From positions 2,723 through 66,722 of IMG/VR virus record IMGVR_UViG_3300034019_000586: DNA of 64,000 nt, one strand, 5' to 3'. This DNA comes from a virus. Positions 33,825 to 47,228 of this stretch are shown one piece after another (the first letter of the stretch is position 1; every line of letters begins with the position of its first letter). The notes under the pieces were generated by a model. It had not been told where the DNA came from. It made no database searches and saw nothing but the letters and a program-made list of their open reading frames with translations. Both the position numbers and the translations under genes were made by a program.

Positions 33825-33904
33825 TGTTATTGTTTTTTCGTTAATTAATCCATATCCGCGAACACTTGTTGAATATGTGCAGTAAAATCATCCATAGCTG
33901 GTAG

Positions 33905-34141
33905 TTAGGTGCAAGGCTCGTACAACGGACAAGCTGCATCCTTACATTTAATCTTTAGCAAACCATTATCAGTTCGGTTGCTTTTCCGAACTCCGCAATA
34001 TTGAAAAACCTTGCTGTTACATTCCCACCGTTGGCGATGCTCACAAGAATTACAAGTAAGCCCAGCACCTAACAATGGTTTTGCGTCAGGCAGGCTGAAC
34101 AGCGTTGGTTGAACATTTGTGGTTAAATCATCTTTATTCAT
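33905..34141 (-). CDS. Cassette 1 ORF, small Cys-rich protein
   Basis: 78 aa with CxxC...C...C. Starts in the attC1 loop; the stop is the TAA of the core at 33905-33907. Confidence 0.65.
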   Translation of the reverse strand: MNKDDLTTNVQPTLFSLPDAKPLLGAGLTCNSCEHRQRWECNSKVFQYCGVRKSNRTDNGLLKIKCKDAACPLYEPCT

Positions 34142-34199
34142 TCTATTGAAATTTAGTGGTTAAAATCCTGCCCGAACGCAAAGCCATCGGACGTTAGCT
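34067..34199 (+). repeat. attC-like site 1
   Basis: ACCTAAC-A-ATGGTTTTGCGTCAGGCAGG ... CCTGCCCGAACGCAAAGCCAT-CGGAC-GTTAGCT. Confidence 0.85.
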
Positions 34200-34403
34200 G
34201 CCATTGTAATGTGACACCACACAAGGGCATCTTTTACCATAATCAGGCATAATAACTTTATCGCATAGATTTACACTTACACCACATAAGCAAGTTTGTT
34301 TTACCTTGCTGTAATCTACCTCCGATTGAGGAGGAATAACGGCAGCTAACAAGCGGTTAGCGTCATTGCCGTTTTCGTGTTTTATTAAATTTTCTGTTTT
34401 CAT
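34194..34403 (-). CDS. Cassette 2 ORF, small Cys-rich protein (69 aa from ATG 34403)
   Basis: MKTENLIKHENGNDANRLLAAV...CLC...C...CPC. Starts in the attC2 loop and stops in the core TAA. Confidence 0.6.
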   Translation of the reverse strand: MKTENLIKHENGNDANRLLAAVIPPQSEVDYSKVKQTCLCGVSVNLCDKVIMPDYGKRCPCVVSHYNGS

Positions 34404-34477
34404 ATCAAATTTATTTTTAAAGTTAAAGTTTTGTGTTCCAAAGTCGGCAACGAACGCCAACCGCCAAAACGTTAGGC
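34344..34477 (+). repeat. attC-like site 2
   Basis: AGCTAAC-AA-GCGGTTAGCGTCATTGCCG ... CGGCAACGAACGCCAACCGC-CAAAAC-GTTAGGC. Confidence 0.85.
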
Positions 34478-34495
34478 GATATGCCAACAGACACC

Positions 34496-34930
34496 CTACA
34501 ACGGTTGAGTGATTTGATTACGAAGTATATCATAAAATACATTTCGTGACAAAGCACCCAAACAAATAAAATCGGGCTTCATTTCATTTAAAGCTAATAT
34601 TTCAGGAATAGCAATAAATAAATCTTCATCAGTAAGTTTTTTAATTAAATCACAATCCATTTCTATAACAGTACCTTTTGTTTTGAAATATCTTTGTTGT
34701 AAGTATTTTGTATATGCTTGTGTAGCATCTGCAATTACACCATACGTTTCGTTTGGGTTTTGCCTTGTAGCCCAACAAACGAAAGCACCTTTAAAATCAT
34801 TTATCATTAAATGAAATTTATCATTCAAATAATTTGCCGAAATGTCAGCGTTTGTCAATTTGTGAACTGACTTGTCTTTAATTTGTTTTGGAGTTAAGTC
34901 AATAACTTCTTTTTGATTTTCTGTACTCAT
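34496..34930 (-). CDS. Cassette 3 ORF, hypothetical protein
   Basis: 144 aa, wholly inside the cassette body, with an AT-rich leader. Confidence 0.65.
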   Translation of the reverse strand: MSTENQKEVIDLTPKQIKDKSVHKLTNADISANYLNDKFHLMINDFKGAFVCWATRQNPNETYGVIADATQAYTKYLQQRYFKTKGTVIEMDCDLIKKLTDEDLFIAIPEILALNEMKPDFICLGALSRNVFYDILRNQITQPL

Positions 34931-34973
34931 TTTATATTTATTTAAAGTTTAAAATTTTAATAAAGGCACAATC

Positions 34974-35105
34974 GCCTAACATCGGTTTTGTGCAAGTGGG
35001 GCTGAATTGCTAAATTCAACAGCGGTAATTCTAATCGGCTTTTGTGCTGAATTGAAACTTTCGTGTTCCAAATCCCCACCTGCACAAAGCCGCAACACGT
35101 TATAG
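34974..35105 (+). repeat. attC-like site 3
   Basis: GCCTAAC-AT-CGGTTTTGTGCAAGTGGGG ... CCCCACCTGCACAAAGCCG-CAACAC-GTTATAG. Confidence 0.85.
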
Positions 35106-35576
35106 GGCATTTAACCGAGCCACCACATCAGCAGACGTATGACCGTCAAACTCAAATAATGCTCTATCCTTTGCAGGTATTTTGAATAAATCCCAATCTT
35201 TCAATTCATAGTGGTTTGATATTTGACCTGTTGGCAATACTGCAACAACGATAAACCAACCACCACCAAAGCAATATTCTCCATCGTGATGCCTAATTGA
35301 TTTGTGAACATTGTATTGTGGTATATCAAACTTTGCCCACTCATTGAATAGTGCAGCATTGTAAGTTTTCCTAAACTCATACAATTCATTAAATGTCTGA
35401 TAACCGTCAGAGTAGTTTCCCCTAACATCAGCAGGTGTATTATCAATACCCTTTTGAACTGATAAAATAATTCCGTTTTGTCCTTGCATTTTTGTGTAAA
35501 ATAAACGCCCTATAACATACGCTATACAAAAGCAGGGGCGAACTGCTAATACAAGCGGTGTGCATCTATTTTTCAT
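35100..35576 (-). CDS. Cassette 4 ORF, conserved phage protein (WDGH-like)
   Basis: SDGYQTFNELYEFR...HKSIRHHDG...GWFIV...LPTGQISNHY...FDGHT. Stops in the core TAA; alternative start at ATG 35489. Confidence 0.7.
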   Translation of the reverse strand: MKNRCTPLVLAVRPCFCIAYVIGRLFYTKMQGQNGIILSVQKGIDNTPADVRGNYSDGYQTFNELYEFRKTYNAALFNEWAKFDIPQYNVHKSIRHHDGEYCFGGGWFIVVAVLPTGQISNHYELKDWDLFKIPAKDRALFEFDGHTSADVVARLNAL

Positions 35577-35639
35577 TTGTGGTAGGCTGAAAGGGAGTGC
35601 ATCTTAACCCCTGCCTTCGTATAGCGTCAGCCGTTAGCC
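35510..35639 (+). repeat. attC-like site 4
   Basis: CTATAAC-AT-ACGCTATACAAAAGCAGGGG ... CCCCTGCCTTCGTATAGCGT-CAGCC-GTTAGCC. Confidence 0.85.
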
Positions 35640-36431
35640 GCAATACGCAGACACCCGACTGACGGCAATTTCAAAATACTTTTCATCTTTTTCTATTCCG
35701 ATAAAGTGGCGACCTGTTTTTTTACAAGCGACACCTGTTGTTCCAGAACCCATGCAATTATCTAAAACAGTTTCGCCTTCGTTTGTATAAGTATTAACTA
35801 AGTAATCAAATAAAGCTATTGGTTTTTGGGTTGGATGAAATTTTCCATCAAATTCAGCAGTCGTAAAATACTGTACACTTCTCGGCAATCTCATGCCATC
35901 CTCTGATTTTCTTATGTGGCTATGGTAGTTCGGTATGTTATTTGAAACTTCGGGGTTATCGTGTTTCTCTTTTACACCACCTCTGTAATATGGTTTCCCT
36001 TGTGTTTTTTGTGGATAATAATTGGGAGTTCCGTTAGCAAATACAAGTACATTTTCGTGTGCTTTCAATGGCTGTTTTTTAGCCAGCAAAAAATTACTTG
36101 CTTTGCTTTTTTCCCAAATCCATTCGTATTTAAACATCTTTGGATTACTCATTACTAAGGCACTTGTAAAAGGCTGCGAAGCCGTTAAAACTATTGCACC
36201 ATTATCTTTTATAACTCTTTCGTAATGTTTCCAAAGTGGTTCAAAAGGTATTACACTATCCCACTTGCAAGCAGTAGTTCCATAAGGCAAATCACACAAA
36301 ATCATATCCACACTTTTATCTTCAATCTTATCCATTTCTACAAGGCAATCACCCTGATAGAATGTACTGCGGCTAACATTGCATTGCTGAACATTGCCAG
36401 CTTCATCGGTAATTTGAACTTTGTATTCCAT
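35634..36431 (-). CDS. Cassette 5 ORF, N6A/N4C DNA methyltransferase (beta class)
   Basis: GDCL, ILCDLPYG (motif IV), HPTQKP and VLDNCMGSGTTG (motif I). Starts in the attC5 loop and stops in the core TAA. Confidence 0.92.
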   Translation of the reverse strand: MEYKVQITDEAGNVQQCNVSRSTFYQGDCLVEMDKIEDKSVDMILCDLPYGTTACKWDSVIPFEPLWKHYERVIKDNGAIVLTASQPFTSALVMSNPKMFKYEWIWEKSKASNFLLAKKQPLKAHENVLVFANGTPNYYPQKTQGKPYYRGGVKEKHDNPEVSNNIPNYHSHIRKSEDGMRLPRSVQYFTTAEFDGKFHPTQKPIALFDYLVNTYTNEGETVLDNCMGSGTTGVACKKTGRHFIGIEKDEKYFEIAVSRVSAYCG

Positions 36432-36504
36432 ATCAACTTTTTATTTTAAATTAAACATTTTTGCTTCTAAATTGGCAACGTCAGCAATACGCAAACCGTT
36501 ATGT
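36371..36504 (+). repeat. attC-like site 5
   Basis: GGCTAAC-AT-TGCATTGCTGAACATTGCCA ... TGGCAACGTCAGCAATACGCA-AACC-GTTATGT. Confidence 0.8.
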
Positions 36505-36509
36505 GCCAT

Positions 36510-36674
36510 TTAATCGACACGCTCCTCAACTATCTTTGTTAATGCCCCACCAACTCTCATCTCATTAAGTTGCTTTTCACTTTCAATCGCTTTCTCCATT
36601 GTGGAATTTACACTCCAAATAACATCTTTTGGGGGTGCTTCACAATCAAGAACAATATAAACGGCACATAACAC
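36510..36674 (-). CDS. Cassette 6 ORF, small hypothetical protein (54 aa, not in ORF track)
   Basis: GTG start overlapping the attC6 core: (M)LCAVYIVLDCEAPPKDVIWSVNSTMEKAIESEKQLNEMRVGGALTKIVEERVD. Spans the cassette body. Confidence 0.45.
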   Translation of the reverse strand: MLCAVYIVLDCEAPPKDVIWSVNSTMEKAIESEKQLNEMRVGGALTKIVEERVD

Positions 36675-36761
36675 GTGCTATAAGCAAGTTTGCCAATAAC
36701 ATTTGTGCTAAATTTGAACATTTCTGCAAGGCAAACCTGCTCATAGCACCATACGTTAGCG
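36666..36761 (+). repeat. attC-like site 6 (short, 96 bp)
   Basis: ACATAAC-AC-GTGCTATAAGCAAGTTTGCC ... GGCAAACCTGCTCATAGCAC-CATAC-GTTAGCG. Confidence 0.85.
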
Positions 36762-36765
36762 GCAA

Positions 36766-37044
36766 TTAAAAAAACCACCGCACCAAATCCATTCCGCTTG
36801 ACTTATAATTTTGTTTTTCCATTAAATCAAATGGTATTTTTTTAACCATTGCATCAGGCAATCTTAAATTGGTGTATTGAGTGTATCTTTCTAATTTAAG
36901 TGTTCTTCCATCGCCTGAACAAAATTGATAACAAGCTCCATTATAGAGAATGTAATCTCCTTTTTTCACTGTGTATTCTTTTCGCCCAATCTTAACTGCC
37001 GCTAACAAGCGGTTAGCGTCATTGCCGTTTTGTGTTTCGTTCAT
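36766..37044 (-). CDS. Cassette 7 ORF, hypothetical protein
   Basis: 92 aa; the N-terminus MNETQNGNDANRLLAAV is encoded by the attC7 half-site. Confidence 0.65.
   Translation of the reverse strand: MNETQNGNDANRLLAAVKIGRKEYTVKKGDYILYNGACYQFCSGDGRTLKLERYTQYTNLRLPDAMVKKIPFDLMEKQNYKSSGMDLVRWFF
37000..37031 (+). repeat. Truncated attC-like site 7 (left arm only)
   Basis: 37001-37031 is identical to 34345-34375 (31 bp); no complementary right arm follows. Confidence 0.8.
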
Positions 37045-37322
37045 ACTCTACTCAATTTATCGTTCAACTCTTTTCTTATTTCATCCGTTCCTTCGATGTT
37101 CTCATCGCTGTCGGGCATAGTCAGTTCAAACACATCAAGGCTGCATTGATACATATCAGTGTATTCATCGTAACCAAACACGGTTAATTCCATGTAGATG
37201 TTAACGCCTTCAAACGTGCTTTCAATAGTGAACGATTCGTTGTCGTTAACGGTGTCAAGGTTTTTGCAGATCAGCGACCAGGAGTAGTCTGTCATTGTTT
37301 CGGTGTTCATACTTCCTCCCAT
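37041..37322 (-). CDS. Hypothetical acidic protein
   Basis: Within ORF-track 37041..37382; the probable start is MGGSM or MNTET. ATGA overlap with the cassette 7 ORF. Confidence 0.5.
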   Translation of the reverse strand: MGGSMNTETMTDYSWSLICKNLDTVNDNESFTIESTFEGVNIYMELTVFGYDEYTDMYQCSLDVFELTMPDSDENIEGTDEIRKELNDKLSRV

Positions 37323-37323
37323 G

Positions 37324-37563
37324 TTATTGTTCTGTTTTAGTTTCGAGTTCTTTGAGTAGTGCGTCGGTATGTGAAATTGCACATTTTACAATATCTTCCA
37401 TTTTCATCATAAAATCTCTGTCTCCCGCCAACAACCCTTGCATCGCCATCGCCGCAAAATATTCGCGTTTTGTAAGGCCGATGTAACTAATATCAGGATA
37501 GCTATCAAGCCTGTATTTGTCATCCTCGTTAATTGGGTAAATTGGTTGGTCTGAATTTTTCAT
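37324..37563 (-). CDS. Conserved small phage protein
   Basis: GLTKREYFAAMAMQGLLA...ALLKEL, a widespread phage motif. Confidence 0.7.
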   Translation of the reverse strand: MKNSDQPIYPINEDDKYRLDSYPDISYIGLTKREYFAAMAMQGLLAGDRDFMMKMEDIVKCAISHTDALLKELETKTEQ

Positions 37564-47100: not shown

Positions 47101-47228
47101 CAAAAAAGCCACTTGTTGCGGGCAAGTGGCTTAATTGATTATCGTGTAGGAGAAGTGTTTTAACTCTCCTCCACTTATTCATGCCCGCAACATCAATAAG
47201 TGGTGGTTAATTAACCATACGAAGGTAC
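47101..47228 (-). ncRNA. Candidate structured RNA/leader with kissing loops
   Basis: Three hairpins, two with exactly complementary 7-nt loops. On the - strand a U-tract follows the last hairpin and a TACCTTCG promoter-like box lies upstream. Confidence 0.45.

What the first reader, a model, noticed from the sequence alone, without database searches (positions are those of the whole stretch)
34060..37044. Recombination sites double as translation starts, N-terminal leaders and stop codons
Seen: ATGs at 34141, 34403, 35576, 36431 and 37044 lie in attC loops and read through the arm and core into the cassette body. They give leaders such as LPDAKPLLGAG, NGNDANRLLAAV, PCFCIAYVIGR and AGNVQQCNVSRS. 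Two otherwise unrelated proteins (cassettes 2 and 7) share NGNDANRLLAAV because of a 31-bp identical arm (34345-34375 = 37001-37031). Four ORFs stop exactly on the TAA of the core (33905, 34194, 35100, 35634). Inference: the attC supplies a portable start module and stop codon, so captured DNA becomes a translatable gene. The mRNA hairpin may also couple or attenuate translation between cassettes.
Basis: partly seen in the sequence, partly recalled or inferred. Interest (0 to 1): 0.8.

Follow-up and report, generated by a model that had tools for sequence, protein, structure and literature searches.

The report
Phage cassette genes start inside attC
In this lake phage, small swappable integron-type gene cassettes are written backwards, so most genes begin inside the loop of their own hairpin recombination site and often end on its neighbour's core, which makes the recombination sites part of the proteins.

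Summary
All five ATGs, the four leader peptides, the 31-nt shared arm and the four stops on a core TAA are at the stated coordinates.

The sites are six full attC-type hairpins plus one truncated site, in a 66.7-kb phage record with no integrase.

Comparison with 201 viral loci supports translation from the loop ATG for ORF1, ORF2, ORF5 and ORF7. It does not for ORF4, whose relatives start at its internal ATG, 35489.

An ATG-headed frame open from loop through core occurs in 38 of 66 viral long attCs. The figure is 23 of 139 for bacterial attCs of the same family.

The "portable start" reading is only partly right. Phage genes lie on the strand opposite to the one used in Bacteroidota chromosomal arrays (57:1 against 6:59). 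The start-bearing attC is inherited with the gene that starts in it (15:0), so each ORF sits wholly inside its own cassette.

Leader and body have nevertheless been swapped at the core in at least 10 contexts, always in frame.

No expression data exist. Other agents of this scan reported the same design in other phages. I found no paper describing it.

The parts
33904..33912 (+). Left array boundary. A bare core G|TTAGGTGC with no hairpin to its left. Its TTA (33905-33907) is ORF1's stop codon on the minus strand.
   Evidence: no attC to the left in the scan
33905..34141 (-). ORF1, 78 aa, Cys-rich (TCNSCEHRQRW...). Its ATG lies in the loop of attC A, and it has no in-frame ATG in the body.
   Evidence: Pfam: no family
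34065..34201 (+). attC A (TAAC..GTTA 34070-34196, 127 nt). Cores are GCACCTAAC and GTTAGCTGC.
34194..34403 (-). ORF2, 69 aa from the loop ATG of attC B. It stops on the core TAA of attC A.
   Evidence: relative with the same attC in L028
34342..34479 (+). attC B (128 nt). Its left arm equals the arm of the truncated site G.
34496..34930 (-). ORF3, 144 aa, with its own ATG outside the attC. It has a weak Tad5-like hit below Pfam's cut-off.
34972..35107 (+). attC C (126 nt). There is no minus-strand ATG in its loop.
35100..35489 (-). ORF4, a WDGH-domain protein. The likely CDS runs from the internal ATG at 35489 (129 aa). The open frame extends to the loop ATG at 35576.
35508..35641 (+). attC D (124 nt).
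   Evidence: (I13)
35634..36431 (-). ORF5, an N6/N4 DNA methyltransferase of 265 aa. Its ATG lies in the loop of attC E and it stops on the core TAA of attC D.
36369..36506 (+). attC E (128 nt).
36507..36663 (.). Body of cassette 6, with no convincing gene. It holds only a 54-codon GTG frame on the minus strand.
36664..36763 (+). attC F, the short type (90 nt).
36766..37044 (-). ORF7, 92 aa. Its ATG lies in the remnant loop of the truncated attC G and overlaps ORF8's stop (ATGA).
36998..37044 (+). Truncated attC G. It keeps the core GCCGCTAAC, one arm and 13 nt of loop, and has no second arm or closing core.
37041..37382 (-). ORF8, a phage gene outside the array. It is context only.

Best explanation
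**What it is.** The stretch is a seven-cassette integron-type array with no integrase (a CALIN) in a lake-water phage of a Bacteroidota-like host. Its roughly 125-nt attC sites belong to a family that also fills chromosomal arrays next to an IntI/Xer-like recombinase gene in Flavobacterium and other Bacteroidota.

**How the genes lie.** In phages the cassette genes lie on the attC bottom strand, the mirror image of the bacterial arrangement. Each gene therefore abuts its own attC with its 5' end.

**Start.** An A-rich, G-poor initiation region and the ATG sit in the unpaired terminal loop. The first 13-23 codons are read from the loop, one arm and the inverse core. The frame then runs into a body that is 5'-truncated relative to non-cassette homologues.

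**Stop.** The ORF ends at or just before the other cassette boundary. In 4 of 7 cases here it ends on the TAA that is the complement of the first three cassette bases (G|TTA).

**Consequences.** Every ORF lies wholly inside its own cassette and keeps its start and stop wherever the cassette goes. Leaders are dictated by hairpin structure, so unrelated proteins with the same attC type share them. Over evolutionary time attC modules have also been exchanged at the core between leader and body, and only in-frame products are seen.

**Shown versus inferred.**
- Shown: anatomy, frames, comparative junctions, strand bias.
- Inferred: translation from the loop ATG, recombination by a host IntI-like enzyme, and the benefit of placing the start in an unpaired loop.
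For: **1. No alternative ATG.** ORF1, ORF2, ORF5 and ORF7 have no in-frame ATG between the core and their conserved residues. In the methyltransferase, the codons just after the core (STFYQGDC) differ between phages mostly at third positions (read by eye; not counted by a script). Polaribacter phage P12002S, read from the sequence, has an equivalent stretch (LIQGE) behind a Met of its own.

**2. Truncated bodies.** Non-cassette relatives carry their own short N-termini: ORF1 family M(E)KLFEIEE..TC in L170-L183; ORF7 family MAAITMSE/MKE before KIGR in L196-L200.

**3. Same body, different leaders, always in frame.**
- The methyltransferase body sits behind at least 4 arm types.
- ORF1's body sits behind 3 leaders.
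- ORF7's body sits behind 3 leaders.
- One attC type (MIDRITEQPFCQTR) precedes two different methyltransferase bodies.

**4. Enrichment.**
- Among 48 non-redundant long attCs, the gene frame is open from a loop ATG in 27. The other frames are open in 10 of 96.
- 38 of 66 viral long attCs have such a frame, against 5 of 66 on the mirror strand. For bacterial attCs the figures are 23 of 139, and 19 of 139 on the mirror strand.

**5. Leader survives loss of the hairpin.** When the hairpin is destroyed, the ATG and leader are kept. Examples are site G with its ATGA overlap, and L167.

**6. Independent annotation.** The GenBank annotation of cultured Flavobacterium phage snork9-1 starts its methyltransferase CDS inside the attC loop.

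**7. Polarity.**
- Gene strand relative to attC asymmetry: viral 57 against 1, bacterial 6 against 59.
- In 10 of 11 bacterial arrays with the recombinase gene, the bacterial gene strand reads away from the recombinase end.
- Long attCs stay with the body on their short-spacer side in 15 cases against 0.
- In 7 of 8 tight long-attC clusters there is a single downstream context but several upstream ones.
- The array ends fit: a bare G|TT at 33904 and a truncated last attC at 36998-37044.

**8. Initiation region.** A is the commonest base at -10 to -13, with 15-17 of 24 sites. As RNA, five of the six full hairpins fold at z -3.8 to -5.0; attC E, the site that holds the methyltransferase's ATG, reaches only z -1.97, with 8 of 200 shuffles folding as well.
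Against: - No transcript, ribosome or peptide data exist.
- ORF1, ORF2 and ORF7 have an in-frame TTG spanning the core, which sequence alone cannot exclude as a start.
- ORF4 and ORF3 use their own starts. 20 of 48 long attCs precede genes that start in the body.
- The published rule for strand polarity places unpaired bases on the arm opposite AAC in the bottom strand (Nivina 2016, PMC5027507, passages). It points the other way for these sites, whose extra bases lie mostly on the long-spacer arm.
- Body and attC were separated at the short-spacer core in 10 long-attC contexts.
- attC detection and orientation rest on my own heuristic, not on IntegronFinder.
- Loci were retrieved through homologues of the window's genes, and many pairs are not independent.
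Confidence: 0.7

Rival explanations
1. Genes are on the attC top strand. Each attC belongs to the upstream cassette and lends its loop ATG and leader to whichever start-less cassette is inserted downstream. It would be a truly portable start module.
For: - Leader and body are joined exactly at the core.
- The same body occurs behind different attC types: the methyltransferase behind at least 4, ORF1 behind 3, ORF7 behind 3.
- In 10 long-attC contexts the similarity between loci breaks at that core.
- The extra unpaired bases lie on the arm where the published rule would place them if the gene strand were the top strand.
Against: - Long attCs are inherited with the downstream body, not the upstream one: 15:0; 37 pairs against 5; 7 of 8 clusters.
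- Bacterial arrays of the same attC family carry genes on the other strand, and that strand reads away from the recombinase gene.
- Under this model the array would begin with half an attC and end with a bare inverse core, which needs two deletions.
- Random joining would be out of frame about half the time. Yet only 3 attCs show an open leader in frame 0 or 1 that is not the gene's frame, against 27 in the gene's frame.
Confidence: 0.15
2. The loop ATGs are ORF-calling artefacts. Real starts lie at or after the core, at an internal ATG or at the TTG/GTG codon that spans the core, and the leaders are not made.
For: - ORF4's relatives start at the internal Met, and its leader frame is not conserved.
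- ORF1, ORF2 and ORF7 have an in-frame TTG at the core.
- Background: 17% of bacterial attCs of this family also show an open ATG-headed frame by chance.
Against: - The methyltransferase cassette has no ATG, GTG or TTG between the core and its conserved STFYQGDC.
- The viral rate is 58%, against 8-17% in controls.
- The A-rich initiation context precedes the loop ATG, not the core, which lies in a stem.
- Leaders are kept, with the ATG, after the hairpin is lost.
Confidence: 0.1
3. The hairpins are not integron sites. They would be another kind of phage intergenic repeat, such as a terminator or regulatory stem-loop, and their overlap with starts would be incidental.
For: - No integrase or any tyrosine recombinase is found in the phage record.
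- The central spacer is strongly asymmetric and most sites lack stem bulges, unlike textbook attCs.
Against: - Cores are RYYYAAC and GTTRRRY.
- Each body is bracketed by perfect 9-nt inverted core extensions.
- Arrays are unidirectional.
- The same family fills arrays next to an IntI-like gene in Bacteroidota chromosomes.
- An attC from a Polaribacter phage was recombined by IntI1 at G|TTRRRY (Qi 2023, PMC9892861, section 3.4 read).
Confidence: 0.05

Closest known systems
Clusters of attC sites lacking an integrase (CALINs) in virulent phages (Qi et al. 2023, Front Microbiol, PMC9892861; abstract, section 3.4 and searched passages read)
   Same: Both have attC sites and gene cassettes in phage genomes without intI. 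Methyltransferase cassettes occur in both, including in a Polaribacter phage. A sister phage, P12002S, carries the same attC family as this window.
   Different: That paper reports two attCs in P12002L. In its text, "start codon", "translation", "initiation" and "leader" occur 0 times. Here there are arrays of 6-13 sites, genes systematically on the bottom strand, and starts inside loops.
ORF-11, ORF-17 and ORF-18 in attI1, and short ORFs inside attC sites of class 1 integrons (as summarised in review PMC8876359; passages read)
   Same: A recombination site carries an initiation region and an ATG that help translation of a cassette lacking its own. The core supplies an in-frame stop codon. attC hairpins influence translation.
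   Different: Those are short separate peptides that act by termination-reinitiation, on the top strand, and belong to attI or to the preceding cassette. Here the frame continues into the body as one protein, on the bottom strand, within the gene's own attC.
[quoted passage not shown]
   Same: Cassette proteins acquire foreign N-termini through junctions at recombination sites.
   Different: Those are rare accidents caused by attC loss. Here it is the regular design of about half of the long-attC cassettes.
Synthetic attC sites embedded in protein-coding sequence (Nivina et al. 2020, Sci Adv, PMC7439510; passages read)
   Same: A functional attC hairpin and a reading frame share the same DNA.
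   Different: That case was engineered, and internal to lacZ or to peptide linkers. Here it is natural, at the N-terminus, with the start codon in the terminal loop.
Bacteroidota chromosomal attC arrays next to an IntI/Xer-like recombinase (for example Flavobacterium wongokense, locus L330; found here)
   Same: The attC family is the same: about 120-128 nt, with a 5-nt against 1-2-nt central spacer and 9-nt core extensions bracketing each body.
   Different: Bacterial genes are on the other strand and have their own starts after the upstream attC. Only 7 of the 175 bacterial long attCs classified have a gene starting in the loop on the phage-sense strand.

Membership tests
Integron attC recombination site | Inverse core RYYYAAC and core GTTRRRY at the two ends | tested here: met
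   All six full sites have this, for example GCACCTAAC...GTTAGCTGC. The scan gave 7 hits against 0 in each of 5 shuffles.
Integron attC recombination site | Imperfect inverted repeats (L boxes) forming a hairpin with an unpaired central spacer and a variable terminal loop | tested here: met
   DNA and RNA folds. Spacer medians are 5 nt against 2 nt, which is more asymmetric than the 5-6 nt per arm described for classical sites.
Integron attC recombination site | Extrahelical bases in the L box that set strand choice | tested here: inconclusive
   62 of 88 viral and 105 of 186 bacterial long sites show no stem indel. Where extra bases exist, they lie mostly on the long-spacer arm: 26 against 10, and 70 against 18.
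Integron attC recombination site | Recombined by an integron integrase at G|TT | not testable with these tools
   Only indirect evidence. IntI1 recombined P12002L_attC2 (Qi 2023). Comparative junctions here fall exactly at the cores.
Complete integron | intI gene and attI next to the array | tested here: not met
   No TIGR02249 or PF00589 match in the 66.7-kb record. The array is therefore a CALIN.
Canonical integron gene cassette | A promoterless ORF on the attC top strand, with its own start after the 5' boundary, followed by its attC | tested here: not met
   Phage genes are on the strand opposite to that of bacterial arrays of the same attC family (57:1 against 6:59). The attC is inherited with the gene that starts in it (15:0).
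ORF-11-type coupling ORF | A short ORF in the att site that terminates at or near the core, so that ribosomes reinitiate at a separate cassette start | tested here: not met
   The frames run on from loop ATG to the end of the body with no stop: 78, 69, 265 and 92 codons.

The most novel reading that the evidence does not exclude
Start-bearing attC modules would be a phage-specific device that turns any gene into a self-expressing mobile cassette. The hairpin is grafted onto a 5'-truncated gene at the inverse core and brings the initiation region, the ATG and a structure-dictated leader. Because these sites mostly lack strand-selecting bulges, both cores recombine. The same system would then move whole genes and also swap N-terminal modules in frame. 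That amounts to a natural, recombinase-driven domain-shuffling system for phage accessory and anti-defence genes across Bacteroidota phages.
Probability: 0.3. Interest if true: 0.85.

Novelty: new variant of a known kind. Interest (0 to 1): 0.7.

Why it matters
**For integron biology.** Cassettes are normally seen as promoterless ORFs followed by a non-coding recombination site. Here a large family of phage cassettes uses the site itself as a 5' expression module and as coding sequence, on the opposite strand.

**For annotation.**
- Pipelines that discard ORFs overlapping attC by more than 50 nt will truncate or lose these genes. One such pipeline is Pereira et al. 2020 (PMC7370490, methods passage).
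- Shared N-terminal peptides on unrelated phage proteins can be misread as homology.

**For phage biology.** The cassettes include a DNA methyltransferase and other candidate counter-defence genes. The design suggests how phages of Bacteroidota trade such genes using a host recombinase.

**For engineering.** It gives natural examples of attC sites compatible with coding sequence, something so far shown only by design (PMC7439510).

Tried and rejected
**Readings and analyses I dropped**

- I first assigned polarity from the side that carries the unpaired bases, which made the gene strand the top strand, and read the leaders as lent by the upstream cassette. I dropped this after the linkage, bacterial-orientation and recombinase-geometry results.
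- Clustering of flanks at 62% identity collapsed into one cluster and was unusable. I used the 5-nt core extensions and BLAST breakpoints instead.
- The BLAST breakpoint test on bacterial loci gave only 7 informative events: 5 breaks at the long-spacer core, 1 at the short-spacer core, and 1 attC kept with its short-spacer body. That is too few to carry weight.

**Laid lake-metagenome contigs**

- Contigs leave the window sequence at 34185 (3 runs), 36668 (2 runs) and 36758/36766 (3 runs), that is, at or next to cores.
- These are low-depth contigs. The single joint 36668->37003 (1 contig, depth 2, side 25) is too weak to count as an excision.
- Parts without cover mean nothing.

**Checks with a null or weak result**

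- Searches for an integron integrase or any Phage_integrase domain in the phage record found nothing.
- The hit at 47161-47209 in the loose scan (score 21) is a short hairpin outside the array and was left aside.

Rfam, covariance models, structure prediction, complex prediction, the search for homologous proteins and the search of protein representatives were not used. IntegronFinder and HattCI were not available.

**Literature limits**

- My statement that the design is not in print rests on searches and on word searches inside PMC9892861.
- Subscription papers were not searchable. These include the original ORF-11 and attC-translation papers, which I know only through the review.
- Supplementary tables of Qi 2023, which hold attC sequences and strands, could not be seen.

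Full report
**What is there**

The window is a 64-kb part of a 66.7-kb IMG/VR virus record that CheckV rates as complete. It has no integron integrase and no Phage_integrase domain.

Between 33.4 and 42 kb all genes lie on the minus strand. Its closest DNA matches among named phages are Flavobacterium and Polaribacter phages. The stretch itself recurs in lake-water metagenomes.

Between 34065 and 36763 there are six imperfect inverted repeats bounded by ...YTAAC and GTTA.... Five are 124-128 nt long and one is 90 nt. A seventh site at 36998-37044 keeps only the core, one arm and 13 nt of loop. A bare core, GTTAGGTGC, stands at 33904.

My scan found these six sites and nothing comparable in five shuffles of the window.

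Every gene body is bracketed by perfect 9-nt inverted core extensions, for example GTTAGCCGC...GCGGCTAAC around the methyltransferase. The same holds in related loci. This is what integron cassettes look like.

**The observation**

ORF7's ATG overlaps the stop of the upstream phage gene as ATGA.

**Is the loop ATG the real start?**

I fetched 80 viral loci through the methyltransferase (ORF5), 80 through ORF4, 30 through ORF1 and 8 through ORF7. I also took three named phage regions. Together with the window this makes 202 sequences. My scan finds 128 attC-like sites in them, against 8 in shuffles.

*Methyltransferase.*
- The body begins ...|VSRSTFYQGDC and has no ATG, GTG or TTG between the core and these conserved residues.
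- It is found behind at least four different arm types with different leaders: MEYKVQITDEAGNVQQCN, MQKSLFENEMLNIVQKPTLHKTD, MQKTLFENENLIEPLTPAFCIGA and MKMSTQVDLFTTVEPTSVSPAIAKPF. All have the ATG a multiple of three from the core.
- DNA similarity to the Flavobacterium phage genes ends at window 36378, which is the core.
- GenBank annotates the snork9-1 gene as starting inside the loop.

*ORF1.*
- The body (|LGAGLTCNSCEHRQRW) occurs behind three leaders.
- More than a dozen non-cassette relatives begin M(E)KLFEIEE...TC, so the cassette form is 5'-truncated.

*ORF7.*
- The body (|L[LS]AVKIGRKEY) occurs behind three leaders.
- Its non-cassette relatives begin MAAITMSE or MKE.

*ORF2.* Its leader type also heads other bodies, in L012 and L174.

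*ORF4 is the exception.*
- Relatives L086 and L087 begin at its internal Met (ATG 35489).
- In L084 and L085 the leader is in another frame.

**Statistics**

- Among 76 non-redundant viral sites, long attCs (>=110 nt, n=48) have an ATG-headed frame open from loop to core in the gene's frame in 27 cases. The other two frames have one in 10 of 96 cases.
- Short attCs (n=28) show no such excess: 4 of 28 against 8 of 56.
- In a wider count, 38 of 66 viral long attCs have such a frame, against 5 of 66 on the mirror strand. Bacterial attCs of the same family give 23 of 139, and 19 of 139 on the mirror strand.
- The 25 nt before the loop ATGs are A/T-rich and G-poor. A is the commonest base at -10 to -13, with 15-17 of 24 sites. 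From my own recollection this fits initiation regions without a Shine-Dalgarno sequence in Bacteroidota; no call here tested that.
- As RNA, five of the six full hairpins fold at z -3.8 to -5.0; attC E reaches only z -1.97, with 8 of 200 shuffles folding as well.

**Whose attC is it?**

I began with the opposite view because the unpaired bases lie where the published rule would put them if the gene strand were the top strand. Four independent lines say otherwise.

1. *Inheritance.*
   - Among pairs of attCs with >=75% identical inner parts, 37 share only the flank downstream in gene sense. Five share only the upstream flank, and all five are short attCs. 19 share both flanks and 72 share neither.
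   - Of 8 tight long-attC clusters seen in several contexts, 7 have a single downstream core extension while the upstream one varies.
   - BLAST breakpoints, counting each long attC once, keep the attC with the body on its short-spacer side in 15 cases and with the other body in 0.
2. *Bacterial arrays.*
   - A pattern built from the arms finds at least 120 stretches in bacterial genomes. Almost all are Bacteroidota, and they include Flavobacterium sp. LMO8. These loci hold 193 sites, against 3 in shuffles.
   - There, 59 inter-attC bodies carry their gene on the strand with the short spacer on the 5' arm, and 6 on the other strand.
   - In viral loci the counts are 1 and 57.
   - Set aside in that count: 25 bacterial and 19 viral bodies had no ORF over 60% of the body, 9 and 13 had bodies outside 180-3000 nt, and 2 and 2 had discordant sites.
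3. *Recombinase geometry.*
   - In Flavobacterium wongokense an IntI/Xer-like gene adjoins an array of at least 18 sites. It scores 203 bits on TIGR02249 (below the 265 cut-off) and 214 bits on NF040815 (below 220).
   - All five further genomes searched have homologues at 42-65% identity.
   - In 10 of 11 arrays where I could see both, the bacterial gene strand reads away from the recombinase end. The exception, L279, has only a 31%-identical recombinase.
4. *Array ends.* With the plus strand as top strand, the window's array starts with a clean G|TT junction at 33904 and ends with one truncated attC. Under the other reading it would need two deletions.

With the plus strand as top strand, each ORF lies wholly inside its own cassette:

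| ORF | ORF coordinates | Cassette coordinates |
|---|---|---|
| ORF1 | 33905-34141 | 33905-34193 |
| ORF2 | 34194-34403 | 34194-34471 |
| ORF5 | 35634-36431 | 35634-36498 |

**Stops**

- In 105 non-redundant viral sites, 100 have an upstream ORF of >=40 codons.
- 36 of these end exactly on the core TAA, 63 end 6-88 nt before it, and 1 ends inside the attC.
- Given the canonical crossover G|TT, that TAA is the complement of the cassette's own first three bases. The crossover position is established knowledge and was verified for phage attCs by Qi 2023.
- An attC overlapping the stop codon is already known to be the rule in resistance cassettes (PMC11511950, passage).

**What stays portable**

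Leader and body have been separated exactly at the short-spacer core in 10 long-attC contexts.

The two cultured phages snork9-1 and hemulen6-1 differ only in the two arms of the attC ahead of an otherwise near-identical methyltransferase. The flanks are identical, the loop centre is conserved and the ATG-to-core distance is kept at 69 nt. I cannot explain that concerted arm swap.

Most sites lack stem bulges. Classical sites that lose their extrahelical bases recombine on both strands (Nivina 2016, passages). Relaxed strand choice is therefore a plausible, untested reason why both cores act as junctions.

**What is known**

- CALINs in virulent phages, methyltransferase cassettes, and recombination of a Polaribacter phage attC by IntI1 are published (Qi 2023).
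- Short ORFs in attI and attC, stop codons in cores and hairpin effects on translation are known for class 1 integrons (review PMC8876359).
- attC sites inside coding sequence have been engineered (Nivina 2020).
- I found no paper describing natural cassettes that start in their own attC loop or the phage/bacterium strand inversion (searches; word search).
- Other agents of this scan have reported the same design in other phage genomes. Those are unchecked AI notes, seen after my own analysis was complete.

**Verdict**

The best reading is self-contained, mirror-image cassettes whose attC is also the 5' end of the gene. This is a new variant of a known kind, and it still lacks any expression evidence.

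Noticed in passing
L001 3180-3560 and L002 2680-3060 (minus strand): Two cultured Flavobacterium phages differ only in both arms of one attC. Each arm pair is self-complementary, while the flanks, the loop centre and the 69-nt ATG-to-core distance are conserved. It looks like a concerted arm swap.
   Followed up: partly
attC loops in the window (34096-34166, 34376-34444, 36404-36472) and in L001, L002, L007, L011, L168: A motif close to TTTGAAAACGAAA recurs in many attC types. It appears both upstream of the loop ATG and again inside the leader, where it reads LFENE. It looks like a DNA or RNA signal rather than a peptide.
   Followed up: no
L330 19-11268 (Flavobacterium wongokense); L331 1-2817 (Flavobacterium sp. 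LMO8): These are chromosomal arrays of the same attC family next to an IntI/Xer-like recombinase that reads towards the array. The recombinase does not align to positions 185-237 of the integron-integrase model. In LMO8 it is the C-terminal part of a 580-aa protein.
   Followed up: partly
L240 1296-2276: An IS1595-family transposase gene sits inside the F. wongokense attC array.
   Followed up: no
window 34496-34930: The cassette 3 protein has a weak match to Tad5, a Thoeris inhibitor (E 1.4e-4, 22.4 bits, below the 27-bit cut-off). It is a possible counter-defence cargo.
   Followed up: no
window 34094-34161: In 3 of the 4 lake-metagenome runs laid, a contig joins the two arms of attC A with the 66-nt loop skipped or replaced. 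Relatives with the same arms and another loop therefore exist in the population.
   Followed up: no
window 36507-36663: Cassette 6 has full attCs on both sides but no convincing gene. It holds only a 54-codon GTG frame.
   Followed up: no
window 47161-47209: A short TAAC...GTTA hairpin outside the array scored just under my threshold. It is probably unrelated to the attC family.
   Followed up: no
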